A stretch of 566 nt of DNA from a phage: the sequence record EF517028.1, one strand, 5' to 3'. Below, one piece after another: positions 1-566 of this stretch; position 1 is the first letter of the stretch; each line of letters starts with the position of its first letter. Both the position numbers and the translations under genes were made by a program. Below the pieces are notes generated by a model. The model did no database searches, was not told the DNA's origin, and saw nothing but the letters and a program-made list of their open reading frames with translations.

Positions 1-1
1 C

Positions 2-106
2 TGGGAAAAAGAAAACCCGCCAGTACAAGCAACTGGGTGTATAGCTTGCTTAGAGAAAGATGACCGTTATCCACACACACCTGTAACAAAGAAGCTAACG
101 ATATGA
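2..106 (+). CDS. 5'-partial ORF in frame +2 ending at TGA 104-106. Probably the N-terminal extension of the gene 1.7 long form displaced into another frame, or else a separate small upstream gene translationally coupled through ATGA.
   Basis: Frame +2 is open from the left edge for 34 codons: WEKENPPVQATGCIACLEKDDRYPHTPVTKKLTI*. Its stop overlaps ATG 103 (ATGA at 103-106). It contains a CxxC pair and an in-phase copy of the 12-nt repeat encoding LEKD, which is also present in the kinase body. An open frame of this length is only weakly significant on its own. Confidence 0.4.
   Translation, partial: WEKENPPVQATGCIACLEKDDRYPHTPVTKKLTI
49..60 (+). repeat. Copy 1 of a 12-nt exact direct repeat, CTTAGAGAAAGA
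   Basis: Identical 12-mer at 49-60 and 495-506. Copy 1 is read in frame +2 as (L)EKD within ACLEKDD. Confidence 0.8.
72..80 (+). repeat. Short dinucleotide tract, (CA)4 plus C
   Basis: CACACACAC at 72-80 read directly. It lies between the frame +1 stop (61-63) and ATG 103, which is the interval where the frame break must occur. Confidence 0.8.
89..94 (+). promoter_or_regulatory. Weak Shine-Dalgarno-like element (AAGAAG) for initiation at ATG 103
   Basis: AAGAAG matches AAGGAG at 5 of 6 positions and sits 8 nt upstream of ATG 103. Confidence 0.35.
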
Positions 107-566
107 CCGAACGTGAACAAGAGATGATTATTAAGTTGATAGACAATAATGAAGGTCGCCCAGATGATTTGAATGGCTGCGGAATTCTCTGCTCCAATGT
201 TCCTTGCCACCTCTGCCTCGCAAATAACGATCAAAAGATAACCTTAGGTGAAATCCGAGCGATGGACCCACGTAAATCACATCTGAATAAACCTGAGGTA
301 ACTCCTACAAATGATCAACCTTCCACTGAGACAATCGAAGGTGTCACTAAGTCTTCCCACTATATGCTGTTTGACGACATTGAGGCTATCGAAGTGATTG
401 CTCGTTCAATGACCGTTGAGCAGTTCAAGGGATACTGCTTCGGTAACATCTTAAAGTACAGACTACGTGCTGGTAAGAAGTCAGAGTTAGCGTACTTAGA
501 GAAAGACCTAGCGAAAGCAGACTTCTATAAAGAATTCTTTGAGAAACATAAGGATAAATGTTATGC
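103..566 (+). CDS. 1.7: Nucleotide (dGMP/dTMP) kinase, T7 gp1.7-like, 3'-partial. Starts at ATG 103 (equivalent to the internal start giving the short form in T7); predicted stop just beyond the window, about 568-570.
   Basis: Frame +1 is open from ATG 103 to the window end (154 complete codons) with no stop. Translation: MTEREQEMIIKLIDNNEGRPDDLNGCGILCSNVPCHLCLANNDQKITLGEIRAMDPRKSHLNKPEVTPTNDQPSTETIEGVTKSSHYMLFDDIEAIEVIARSMTVEQFKGYCFGNILKYRLRAGKKSELAYLEKDLAKADFYKEFFEKHKDKCY. The C-terminal part carries what I recall as the DUF3310 / T7 gp1.7 pattern (HY..IE.I..., G.CFGN..KY.LR.G.K, DL.KA..Y). In-frame TGA at 61-63 sets the upstream limit, and a weak SD-like AAGAAG lies at 89-94. The family assignment is from memory, not a search. 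Confidence 0.85.
   Translation, partial: MTEREQEMIIKLIDNNEGRPDDLNGCGILCSNVPCHLCLANNDQKITLGEIRAMDPRKSHLNKPEVTPTNDQPSTETIEGVTKSSHYMLFDDIEAIEVIARSMTVEQFKGYCFGNILKYRLRAGKKSELAYLEKDLAKADFYKEFFEKHKDKCY
495..506 (+). repeat. Copy 2 of a 12-nt exact direct repeat, CTTAGAGAAAGA
   Basis: Identical 12-mer at 49-60 and 495-506. Copy 2 is read in frame +1 as (L)EKD within AYLEKDL. Confidence 0.8.
549..553 (+). promoter_or_regulatory. Shine-Dalgarno (AAGGA) for a downstream gene starting at ATG 563
   Basis: AAGGA at 549-553 lies 9 nt upstream of ATG 563-565 (frame +2), inside the 3' end of the kinase ORF. This is the overlapping-gene arrangement typical of T7-like early regions. Confidence 0.45.
563..566 (+). 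CDS. Probable start of a small downstream gene overlapping the 3' end of gene 1.7 (position analogous to T7 gene 1.8); only 4 nt are in the window.
   Basis: ATG at 563-565 is preceded by a well-spaced AAGGA. The frame (+2) differs from the kinase frame, so the two genes would overlap by a few nt. It cannot be assessed further from 4 nt. Confidence 0.3.

What the first reader, a model, noticed from the sequence alone, without database searches (positions are those of the whole stretch)
61..106. Frame break between the gene 1.7 N-terminal extension and the kinase body, probably at the (CA)4 tract
Seen in sequence: the kinase frame (+1) has a TGA at 61-63, so it can only start at ATG 103. The upstream coding signal is in frame +2, open from the left edge and ending at TGA 104-106. 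Deleting one CA unit from CACACACAC (72-80), or any net -2/+1 change in 64-102, would fuse the two frames into ...CLEKDDRYPHTCNKEANDMTEREQ.... Established knowledge, from memory: T7 gp1.7 is made in a long form (about 22 kDa, 196 aa as I recall) and a short form (about 18 kDa) from an in-frame internal start, and the C-terminal half is enough for activity. The numbers fit: 155 codons from ATG 103 plus 41 upstream codons (8 of them left of the window) gives 196. Inference: this copy has a frameshift in the N-terminal extension, whether from a natural variant, dinucleotide slippage or a sequencing/assembly error, and would still make the active short form.
Basis: partly seen in the sequence, partly recalled or inferred. 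Interest (0 to 1): 0.7.

Follow-up and report, generated by a model that had tools for sequence, protein, structure and literature searches.

The report
CA-repeat frameshift in T7 gene 1.7
This is a heavily mutated copy of phage T7's non-essential nucleotide-kinase gene in which one extra CA in a short CA repeat cuts off the N-terminal extension; the mutation is ordinary, but the same repeat has expanded independently in several wild T7-like phages.

Summary
The window is T7 gene 1.7 (codons 9-196) plus the start of gene 1.8, 97.3% identical to T7. Its only indel against T7 is one extra CA: T7 has (CA)3 and the window has (CA)4 at 72-79. This moves the N-terminal extension into frame +2, which ends at TGA 104-106. 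The 155-codon kinase body can then start only at ATG 103.

1. Twelve of the 13 substitutions are G:C>A:T changes running from T7 to the window. This matches the mutagenised T7 isolates AY264775-8 and not natural relatives, so the copy most likely comes from a chemically mutagenised T7 line.
2. G92A destroys the internal Shine-Dalgarno (AAGGAG>AAGAAG; duplex -7.9 to -1.0 kcal/mol). P125S, L186F and P80L hit invariant or near-invariant residues. Production of an active short form is therefore not assured, although the ATGA stop/start overlap could allow reinitiation.
3. The same tract has expanded independently at least three more times in natural T7-like phages, including GenBank isolates R1, LNA5 and SHAK9454. 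In those lineages the short ORF stays under purifying selection.

Verdict: a real slippage frameshift in a known gene, of low to moderate interest.

The parts
2..106 (+). Truncated N-terminal ORF in frame +2. It comprises gp1.7 codons 9-34 (2-79), then 8 out-of-frame codons PVTKKLTI (80-103), then stop TGA 104-106, which overlaps ATG 103-105 (ATGA).
   Evidence: Translation. Residues 9-34 are identical to T7 gp1.7.
61..63 (+). TGA in the kinase frame (+1). It is created by the frame shift and blocks any extension of the kinase ORF upstream of ATG 103.
72..79 (+). (CA)4 tract, followed by C80. T7 and all T7 strains have (CA)3, so the extra CA is the frameshift.
   Evidence: Alignment. Tract states in 20 sequences.
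89..94 (+). Internal Shine-Dalgarno of the short form, degraded from AAGGAG (T7) to AAGAAG by G92A. It lies 8 nt upstream of ATG 103.
   Evidence: Anti-SD duplex energy is -7.9 kcal/mol in T7 and -1.0 in the window. All 19 relatives keep AAGGAG.
103..566 (+). Short-form gp1.7 ORF (T7 residues 42-196, 155 codons). The last codon GC- is cut by the window end and the stop lies outside the window.
   Evidence: The Pfam DUF3310 match scores 79.5 bits against a cut-off of 24.
343..531 (+). DUF3310 (PF11753) core domain of the kinase, short-form residues 81-143. It contains P125S at base 352.
92..535 (+). Thirteen substitutions relative to T7. G>A at 92, 310, 318 and 325. C>T at 129, 201, 218, 277, 315, 352, 363 and 535. 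T>A at 183. Amino-acid changes in T7 numbering: G38E, P80L, P100S, D111N, A116T, P125S and L186F.
551..565 (+). Start of gene 1.8: SD AAGGA at 551-555 and ATG at 563-565, overlapping the end of gene 1.7.
   Evidence: T7 annotation transferred by alignment. SD duplex energy -6.0 kcal/mol.

Best explanation
The window is gene 1.7 (dTMP/dGMP nucleotide kinase, DUF3310) of a direct descendant of phage T7. Slipped-strand mispairing during replication added one CA unit to the (CA)3 tract at codons 33-35. Ribosomes that start at the gene's normal first ATG, which lies left of the window, now read 34 native codons and 8 wrong ones and stop at TGA 104-106, so the 22-kDa long isoform is lost. The 155-codon body (ATG 103) is intact as an ORF. 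Its own ribosome-binding site has been destroyed by G92A, so any short form must come mainly from termination-reinitiation at the ATGA overlap or from weak SD-independent initiation. The copy also carries 12 one-directional G:C>A:T substitutions, about half of them amino-acid changing and three at invariant or near-invariant residues. It therefore most likely comes from a chemically mutagenised (nitrosoguanidine-type) laboratory T7 line, in which this non-essential gene is drifting without selection. What is shown: the homology, the exact indel, the loss of the SD, the mutational spectrum, and the recurrence of the same expansion in nature. What is inferred: slippage as the mechanism, the mutagenised origin, reinitiation, and reduced or absent kinase activity.
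For: Identity and indel:
- The window is 97.3% identical to T7 gene 1.7 over 566 nt, and the only indel is +CA in CACACAC.
- No T7 strain in a collection of 50,697 phage records shares the insertion or any of the 13 substitutions; the best identity found is that of wild-type T7.

Mutational spectrum:
- Four G>A, eight C>T and one T>A, with no A:T>G:C change. A 12:0 split has binomial p = 0.0005.
- The mutagenised T7 isolates K and P (AY264775, AY264777) show the same pure G>A/C>T spectrum in this gene, at other sites.
- Natural relatives differ from T7 with more A:T>G:C than G:C>A:T changes and about 45% transversions.
- The base 5' of the mutated G is G in 6 of 12 cases against a background of 0.21 (p = 0.02). 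It is a purine in 23 of 29 cases pooled with K and P (p = 0.004).
- G:C>A:T changes dominate nitrosoguanidine and hydroxylamine mutagenesis of T7 (PMC6042481).

Selection and function:
- Gene 1.7 is non-essential (PMC7697293).
- Seven of the 12 G:C>A:T changes are non-synonymous, against 67% expected for unselected G:C>A:T changes (p = 0.55).
- SD duplex energy falls from -7.9 to -1.0 kcal/mol.
- Conservation at the substituted residues is given.

Slippage as the mechanism:
- The same tract is 9 nt (+2) in phages R1, LNA5 and SHAK9454 and in contigs from runs ERR2029892, ERR779990, ERR15156825 and ERR477264. It is 11 nt (+4) in SRR17497105.
- These fall in at least three further separate clades. 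Every pure (CA)4 or (CA)5 allele sits beside or in the same clade as relatives with a perfect (CA)3; within the R1/LNA5/SHAK9454/ERR2029892 clade two tracts have since acquired a substitution (CACACACGC, CATACACAC).
Against: - The source record was not found in any collection, so the provenance is inferred only from the spectrum.
- Five of the 13 derived states also occur in natural relatives, against 2 of 17 in the K and P lines. This is not significant (Fisher p = 0.19) but leaves some room for a natural origin.
- No reads are available, so a sequencing or assembly error at the tract cannot be formally excluded.
- Reinitiation at ATGA without an SD is plausible but was not measured.
- The gene's own first ATG and its SD lie outside the window, so their state in this copy is unknown.
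Confidence: 0.78

Rival explanations
1. The extra CA is a sequencing or assembly artefact, and the real phage has (CA)3 and an intact 196-codon gene.
For: No reads could be inspected. The allele is private among T7 strains.
Against: Gain of a whole unit in a repeat of only 3 units is not a typical error of Sanger or Illumina data. The same gene also carries an SD-destroying change and substitutions at invariant residues, so it is visibly unconstrained. Identical +CA alleles exist in independent natural genomes from different laboratories, countries and runs, which shows the change is biologically ordinary and viable.
Confidence: 0.08
2. The window comes from a natural close relative of T7, not a mutagenised laboratory line, and the (CA)4 allele is a natural polymorphism.
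For: Natural (CA)4 and (CA)5 alleles exist in other T7-like phages. Five of 13 derived states, including P100S and A116T, are seen in natural relatives such as N30, EG1 and K1F.
Against: All 12 transitions run G:C>A:T from T7 to the window and none runs the other way, so T7 itself behaves as the ancestor (p = 0.0005). Natural relatives show both directions and many transversions. The window-specific haplotype is absent from IMG/VR, JGI metagenomes and GTDB genomes. Changes at residues invariant in 120 homologues, together with loss of a universally conserved SD, are not expected in a wild phage.
Confidence: 0.1
3. The frame break is compensated by programmed -1 ribosomal frameshifting, or by transcriptional slippage, within 64-102, so a near-native long form is still made.
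For: A -1 shift anywhere in 64-102 would restore the frame. There is one single-tRNA slip candidate, A-AAG at 88-91.
Against: There is no X XXY YYZ heptamer in the zero frame within 64-102. The only canonical heptamer (AAACCCG, around bases 13-19) lies upstream of the frame +1 TGA at 61-63. No downstream structure is predicted (MFE -1.9 kcal/mol for 60-140). There is no Rfam match. In natural +2 lineages the N-terminal ORF decays (ERR2029892 has lost its ATG and CxxC; R1 has R30H), so it is not being read through into a selected product.
Confidence: 0.02
4. The CA tract acts as a selectable switch. Expansions are retained because losing the long isoform is advantageous under some conditions, for example on hosts whose defences sense gp1.7, rather than being neutral accidents.
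For: There are at least four independent expansions at one 7-nt tract, and no other kind of disruption of the extension was seen in the sample. Frameshifted natural lineages persist and keep the short ORF under purifying selection, with dN/dS of 0.02-0.36. gp1.7 activates the Avs5 defence protein (PMC11897194). Many relatives lack the extension altogether.
Against: Three to five repeat units is far below the length of known contingency loci. No reversion to an in-frame tract was seen inside the frameshifted clade; instead the tract acquired substitutions (CACACACGC, CATACACAC) that would stabilise it. Only 3 of about 216 isolate genomes with the extension carry the +2 allele. My sample of metagenomic contigs was chosen through proteins of about 155 aa and is therefore biased towards frameshifts. 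For the window itself, drift under mutagenesis is sufficient.
Confidence: 0.1

Closest known systems
Phage T7 gene 1.7 (gp1.7 nucleotide kinase; AY264774 8167-8757, NC_001604)
   Same: It is 97.3% identical in DNA, occupies the same position upstream of gene 1.8, has the same internal Met42 start codon and the same DUF3310 domain.
   Different: The window has +CA at codons 33-35, so there is no 196-aa product. The internal SD is AAGAAG instead of AAGGAG. There are seven amino-acid substitutions, three of them at invariant or near-invariant positions.
Mutagenised T7 isolates K, K115, P and P82 (AY264775-AY264778; Bull et al. 2003 J Mol Evol 57:241). The experimental design is from memory; the paper was not held.
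   Same: In gene 1.7 the K- and P-line alleles each carry 8-9 substitutions relative to T7 that are G>A or C>T, at a density similar to the window's 13 and with the same 5'-purine context. P82 adds one G>T.
   Different: The sites differ; only C315T is shared, with P. None has the CA insertion. K has an in-frame 3-nt deletion instead. All four keep the AAGGAG SD and a gene 1.7 annotated at full length, 195 or 196 codons.
Natural +2 alleles of gene 1.7: Escherichia phages vB_EcoP-R1 (OQ703102), vB_EcoP_LNA5 (MZ311861) and vB_EcoM_SHAK9454 (OR594184), and Logan contigs from ERR779990, ERR15156825, ERR477264 and ERR2029892
   Same: The same tract has expanded to 9 nt ((CA)4 or a derivative). The N-terminal ORF is truncated in the same way, ending ...YPHTPV(T/I)KEL..*, with its TGA overlapping the internal ATG. 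The kinase is left as an ORF of 155-158 codons, and in R1 it is annotated from the internal ATG.
   Different: They are only about 80-88% identical to the window and sit in other clades, so they are independent events. They keep the AAGGAG SD and the conserved residues, and their short ORF is under purifying selection.
Natural stand-alone short gp1.7 genes, for example phage K1F gene 1.7 (155 aa)
   Same: The protein starts at the position equivalent to T7 Met42 and has the same body and DUF3310 domain. Of 120 homologue representatives, 51 start there, although in three of the eleven loci whose upstream DNA was read the extension was intact and the gene caller had simply chosen the internal ATG.
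   Different: K1F has no remnant of the N-terminal extension. Its ATG directly follows gene 1.6 and has a strong SD (AAGGAGGT).
Simple-sequence-repeat phase variation (bacterial contingency loci)
   Same: A frame change caused by gain of repeat units in a coding dinucleotide repeat, recurring at one site.
   Different: The tract has only 3-5 units. No reversions were observed, and there is no evidence of high-frequency switching.

Membership tests
T7 gp1.7 / DUF3310 nucleotide kinase | Significant match to Pfam PF11753 (DUF3310) above the gathering score | tested here: met
   79.5 bits against a cut-off of 24, at residues 81-143 of the short ORF.
T7 gp1.7 / DUF3310 nucleotide kinase | Orthologous position in the T7 class II region, between gene 1.6 and gene 1.8 | tested here: met
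   Collinear 97.3% alignment to T7 8190-8753. The gene 1.8 start lies at 563-565. Gene 1.6 lies left of the window.
T7 gp1.7 / DUF3310 nucleotide kinase | Single continuous ORF encoding the long (196-aa) form | tested here: not met
   The +CA insertion separates codons 1-34 from codons 42-196.
T7 gp1.7 / DUF3310 nucleotide kinase | Internal start for the short form: Met42 preceded by AAGGAG | tested here: inconclusive
   The ATG is present. The SD is mutated to AAGAAG, with duplex energy -1.0 against -7.9 kcal/mol. An ATGA overlap with the upstream stop could substitute for it.
T7 gp1.7 / DUF3310 nucleotide kinase | dTMP/dGMP kinase activity | not testable with these tools
   P125S, L186F and P80L fall at positions conserved in 120/120, 118/120 and 116/120 homologues. 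The effect on activity is unknown.
Slipped-strand (repeat-unit) frameshift mutation | The indel lies in a perfect tandem repeat and equals a whole number of units relative to the ancestor | tested here: met
   (CA)3 to (CA)4 relative to T7.
Slipped-strand (repeat-unit) frameshift mutation | Independent recurrence at the same tract, and absence where the repeat is interrupted | tested here: met
   At least four independent expansions, to (CA)4 or (CA)5. The seven sampled sequences whose 7-nt tract is not a perfect (CA)3 (CACATAC in five, TACATAC and CGCACAC in one each) are all unexpanded.
Slipped-strand (repeat-unit) frameshift mutation | Read-level confirmation that the allele is real | not testable with these tools
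   The source record and its reads are unavailable.
Chemically mutagenised (nitrosoguanidine-type) T7 lineage | Substitutions almost exclusively G:C>A:T, polarised from wild-type T7 | tested here: met
   12 of 13, with none in the reverse direction. Known mutagenised isolates show the same pattern and natural relatives do not. Literature: PMC6042481.
Chemically mutagenised (nitrosoguanidine-type) T7 lineage | 5'-purine (especially 5'-G) context of the mutated G | tested here: inconclusive
   5'-G in 6 of 12 against a background of 0.21 (p = 0.02). 5'-purine in 9 of 12 against 0.54 (p = 0.12). Pooled with K and P, 23 of 29 (p = 0.004). The sample is small. That this context is typical of nitrosoguanidine is from memory.
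Chemically mutagenised (nitrosoguanidine-type) T7 lineage | Documented provenance | not testable with these tools
   The sequence was not found in any collection searched.
Programmed -1 ribosomal frameshift site | Slippery heptamer X XXY YYZ in the upstream frame within the overlap (64-102) | tested here: not met
   None found. The only candidate is a single A-AAG slip.
Programmed -1 ribosomal frameshift site | Stimulatory downstream structure or upstream SD-like element | tested here: not met
   MFE of 60-140 is -1.9 kcal/mol. No Rfam match above noise.
Contingency locus (SSR phase variation) | Long repeat tract with reversible ON/OFF switching seen among close relatives | tested here: not met
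   The tract has 3-5 units. Within the frameshifted Kayfunavirus clade no reversion was seen and the tract became interrupted.

The most novel reading that the evidence does not exclude
The (CA)3 tract at codons 33-35 of T7-type gene 1.7 is a recurrent, possibly selected, switch that turns off the long isoform while leaving the kinase body expressed through the internal start and the ATGA overlap. The long isoform carries a conserved CxxC...HxC motif. Under this reading, T7-like phages repeatedly shed the extension when it is costly, for example when host defences such as Avs5 sense gp1.7. The window would be a laboratory replay of that natural event.
Probability: 0.1. Interest if true: 0.55.

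Novelty: new member of a known kind. Interest (0 to 1): 0.3.

Why it matters
For the window itself the result matters mainly for annotation. The locus should be called a frameshifted gene 1.7, meaning a truncated leader ORF plus a 155-codon kinase ORF with a damaged ribosome-binding site. It should not be called two genes or an intact kinase. The G:C>A:T signature also flags the source as a mutagenised T7 derivative.

The wider point is modest but new as far as I could find. The same 7-nt CA tract has expanded independently in several wild T7-like phages, including three GenBank isolates. Their kinase bodies remain under purifying selection while the N-terminal extension decays. This is natural genetic evidence that the Cys/His-containing extension of gp1.7 is dispensable and the short form is the functional unit. 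It also offers ready-made allele pairs, (CA)3 against (CA)4, for testing what the long isoform does, including whether it affects recognition by Avs5.

Tried and rejected
- **Finding the source.** I used exact-pattern scans across the tract and across a window-specific haplotype in IMG/VR, JGI metagenomes and GTDB genomes. I ran megablast against E. coli genomes and plasmids. I looked up the presumed 155-aa product by exact sequence among 15 billion proteins. All were negative.
- **A conclusion I withdrew.** I first concluded from identity bands that no phage record carries (CA)4. That was too strong. A tblastn search with the frameshift peptide found three distant isolates with the +2 allele. 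The statement holds only for T7 strains and other close relatives.
- **Papers.** Tran et al. 2008, 2010 and 2012 and Springman et al. 2010 could not be read. The two-isoform statement therefore rests on memory. The computed masses are 22,184 Da (196 aa) and 17,711 Da (155 aa). The first agrees with the about 22.18 kDa I recall. The second is 71 Da below the 17,782 I recall, so that number should not be trusted.
- **Programmed frameshifting.** Rejected, because there is no heptamer and no structure.
- **RNA element.** Rejected; the only Rfam match has E = 0.68.
- **Solved structure of gp1.7.** None found in the PDB by sequence.
- **Recombination with a natural (CA)4 phage as the source of the insertion.** Rejected, because both flanks of the tract are T7-specific (window 1-91 is otherwise identical to T7), so the exchanged tract would have to be shorter than about 30 nt.
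- **Substitution-free stretch at 364-534.** It is not significant as evidence of selection (p = 0.15).
- **Nei-Gojobori dN/dS for T7 against the window (0.25).** Not used as evidence of selection, because the method ignores the transition-only spectrum. The spectrum-aware test is neutral.

Full report
**1. What is in the window**

The 566 bases align end to end with phage T7 gene 1.7 (AY264774 8190-8753) at 97.3% identity. The window starts at the last base of codon 8. It ends two bases into the last sense codon (196) of gene 1.7, inside the start of gene 1.8 (ATG 563-565).

The pairwise alignment shows 13 substitutions and one indel. T7 reads TATC-CACACAC-CTG and the window reads TATC-CACACACAC-CTG. 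This is one extra CA unit, so (CA)3 has become (CA)4 at 72-79.

- Frame +2 is open from base 2. It encodes gp1.7 residues 9-34 without a single amino-acid change, then eight wrong codons (PVTKKLTI), then TGA at 104-106.
- Frame +1, the kinase frame, has TGA at 61-63. No start codon lies between that and ATG 103.
- T7 gp1.7 is 196 aa, the internal Met is residue 42, and the remainder is 155 aa.

**2. Where the copy comes from**

No collection holds this sequence. I searched phage genomes, plasmids, complete E. coli genomes, IMG/VR, JGI metagenomes, GTDB genomes and the 15-billion-protein collection.

Its nearest relatives are wild-type T7 strains. None of them shares any of the 13 substitutions, because none scores above the wild-type identity.

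The substitutions form a striking set.
- Four are G>A, eight are C>T and one is T>A.
- All 12 transitions therefore run from G:C in T7 to A:T in the window, and none runs the other way (binomial p = 0.0005).
- Four natural relatives (13a, SYGE1, N30, EG1) differ from T7 with more A:T>G:C than G:C>A:T changes and with about 45% transversions.

The mutagenised T7 isolates K, K115, P and P82 (AY264775-8) behave like the window. In the same gene the K and P alleles each carry 8-9 substitutions that are G>A or C>T, at different sites; P82 adds one G>T.

The base 5' of the mutated G is G in 6 of 12 window changes, against a background of 0.21. It is a purine in 23 of 29 changes when the window is pooled with K and P. 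From memory, this is the context preference of nitrosoguanidine.

A paper from the same laboratory states that G:C>A:T changes dominate nitrosoguanidine and hydroxylamine mutagenesis of T7 (PMC6042481).

I conclude that T7 itself is effectively the ancestor, and that the copy most likely comes from a chemically mutagenised T7 line. This is an inference from the spectrum, because the provenance could not be looked up.

A mild caveat applies. Five of the 13 derived states also occur in natural relatives, against 2 of 17 for K and P. The difference is not significant (p = 0.19).

**3. State of the gene**

Gene 1.7 is non-essential (PMC7697293). The pattern fits an unconstrained gene. Seven of the 12 G:C>A:T changes alter the protein, against 67% expected for random G:C>A:T changes in this gene (p = 0.55).

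First, G92A lies in the Shine-Dalgarno of the internal start.
- T7 and all 19 relatives examined have AAGGAG 8 nt upstream of the ATG. The window has AAGAAG.
- The predicted anti-SD duplex weakens from -7.9 to -1.0 kcal/mol.

Second, three of the six substitutions in the short ORF hit highly conserved positions among 120 homologue representatives.
- P125S: Pro in 120 of 120, inside the DUF3310 domain.
- L186F: Leu in 118 of 120.
- P80L: Pro in 116 of 120.

The statement that this copy would still make an active short form is therefore not secure.

One feature works in its favour. The stop of the truncated leader ORF overlaps the internal ATG (ATGA, 103-106). This is the classic arrangement for termination-reinitiation, so ribosomes loaded at the strong first RBS of gene 1.7 could restart there. 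That RBS scores -12.7 kcal/mol in T7 and lies outside the window. This step is inferred, not shown.

**4. The same tract has expanded repeatedly in nature**

I followed up 155-aa homologues and found that P0054 is encoded on contigs from three sequencing runs. Upstream of the ATG, all three carry the identical TATCCACACACACCTG. This gives a leader ORF MSGCIACLEKDDRYPHTPVTKELKV* whose TGA overlaps the ATG.

Two of these contigs differ at 105 of 1454 aligned bases. Sixteen of those differences lie inside the short ORF, and it still translates to the same protein.

A tblastn search with the frameshift peptide then found three GenBank isolates with the +2 allele.
- vB_EcoP-R1, where the kinase is annotated from the internal ATG.
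- vB_EcoP_LNA5.
- vB_EcoM_SHAK9454, whose tract is now CACACACGC.

Two more contigs add to the series.
- ERR2029892 has CATACACAC (+2), and its extension has decayed: there is no ATG and the CxxC motif is lost.
- SRR17497105 has (CA)5 (+4), whereas its near relative ZH4 has (CA)3.

I mapped tract length on a neighbour-joining tree of the kinase body. The expansions fall in at least four separate places:
- the window, next to T7;
- the P0054 pair;
- the R1/LNA5/SHAK9454/ERR2029892 clade;
- SRR17497105.

Every pure (CA)4 or (CA)5 allele has a perfect (CA)3 in its sister or clade. The seven sampled sequences with an imperfect 7-nt tract (CACATAC, TACATAC, CGCACAC) are all unexpanded.

Within frameshifted lineages the short ORF has dN/dS of 0.02-0.36, so it remains under purifying selection. 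All of them keep AAGGAG.

This supports replication slippage as the mechanism. It also shows that loss of the long form is tolerated in the wild.

My sample of metagenomic contigs was chosen through short proteins and is therefore biased. Among isolate genomes, only 3 of about 216 with the extension carry the +2 allele.

**5. The N-terminal extension is dispensable**

- Fifty-one of 120 homologue representatives start at the Met42 position. Met42 is conserved in 117 of 120.
- Some of those 51 truly lack the extension, for example K1F, P0069 and P0076, where the ATG overlaps the gene 1.6 stop.
- Others have an intact extension, and the gene caller simply chose the internal ATG.
- The extension carries C21-x-x-C24...H33-x-C35. 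This motif is conserved in nearly all representatives that have the extension. The CA tract encodes H33 and T34, so the frameshift removes C35.

**6. Rival explanations**

- A sequencing artefact cannot be excluded without reads. It is unlikely for the gain of a whole unit in a three-unit repeat, in a gene that is visibly unconstrained.
- A natural origin is disfavoured by the one-directional spectrum.
- Programmed frameshifting is rejected. There is no slippery heptamer in 64-102, no downstream structure and no Rfam match. The leader ORF also decays in natural +2 lineages.
- A selected switch (contingency-type) reading is not excluded, because gp1.7 activates the Avs5 defence protein (PMC11897194). 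However, the tract is short and no reversions were seen, and within the frameshifted clade the tract became interrupted. For the window, drift under mutagenesis is sufficient.

**7. Comparison with what is known, and verdict**

The locus is a frameshifted allele of a well-studied gene. The mutation type, repeat-unit slippage, is textbook.

The literature claims about two gp1.7 isoforms could not be read here. They rest on memory. The computed masses are 22,184 and 17,711 Da.

What is new is small. It consists of the exact allele, the accompanying loss of the internal SD, the mutagenesis signature, and the recurrence of CA expansion at this site in wild T7-like phages. I found no description of that recurrence.

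I rate the finding as a new member of a known kind, with interest about 0.3.

Noticed in passing
window 62-82 (codons 21-35 of gp1.7) and 178-216: The N-terminal extension carries a conserved C21-x-x-C24...H33-x-C35 motif, present in 60-66 of the roughly 66 representatives that have the extension. The kinase body has a second Cys cluster (C66, C70, C75, C78). Both look like zinc-binding motifs. The CA tract encodes H33-T34, so the frameshift removes C35.
   Followed up: partly
L013 (Erwinia phage FE44, NC_022744) 678-1100; L014 (phage P694, NC_028863) 554-1063: gp1.7 is modular in nature. FE44 joins the T7-type extension (MGLLDGAAWEKENPP...YPHTC) to a different, shorter Cys-rich middle segment. 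P694 carries two copies of the DDRYPH-containing module. Nucleotide similarity to the window stops at about base 72-78, which is at the CA tract.
   Followed up: partly
L003 (AY264775, T7 isolate K) against window 9-11: The mutagenised isolate K (and K115) has an in-frame 3-nt deletion (AAG) in the AAAAAGAAAA run of the same gene. This is a second indel at a simple-sequence site in a mutagenised T7 line. Isolate P shares C315T with the window, a parallel hit.
   Followed up: no
L026 (ERZ28588653 scaffold_85) 170-300; L010 (phage SYGE1): These relatives have one extra G or A in the GGGAAAAAG run at codons 9-11 and use a different upstream ATG (MVQLG...). The extreme N-terminus of the extension therefore also varies by homopolymer length. 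L026 has also lost two of the four Cys/His ligands (C21R, C35Y).
   Followed up: partly
L029 (ERR2029892_738) 200-300: In this +2 lineage the extension is decayed: the ATG is lost, CxxC has become C-I-S-F, and the tract is CATACACAC. The 158-aa kinase ORF with its AAGGAG SD is intact. This looks like an old frameshift followed by pseudogenisation of the leader.
   Followed up: partly
L031 (OR594184 SHAK9454) and L032 (MZ311861 LNA5): Both GenBank records that carry the +2 allele are flagged UNVERIFIED and come from one laboratory in Brisbane. In SHAK9454 the feature under the region is labelled 'hypothetical protein, phrog 16385' and its neighbours are labelled endonuclease and amidase. That does not match the usual gene order around gene 1.7, so the annotation or the coordinates of that record look unreliable.
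   Followed up: no
window 551-566: The gene 1.8 start (SD AAGGA 551-555, ATG 563-565) overlaps the last codons of gene 1.7. The 1.6/1.7 junction (TGATG) and the 1.7/1.8 junction (ATGCATAA) in T7 are also overlaps. Stop/start coupling is therefore the norm in this operon, which makes reinitiation at the new ATGA plausible.
   Followed up: partly
T7 gp1.7, computed masses: The computed average mass of the 155-aa short form is 17,711 Da, and 22,184 Da for the 196-aa form. My recollection of the published short-form mass (17,782) differs by 71 Da, about one Ala. Either the memory is wrong or the published short form does not start exactly at Met42. I could not check this because the papers were not held.
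   Followed up: no
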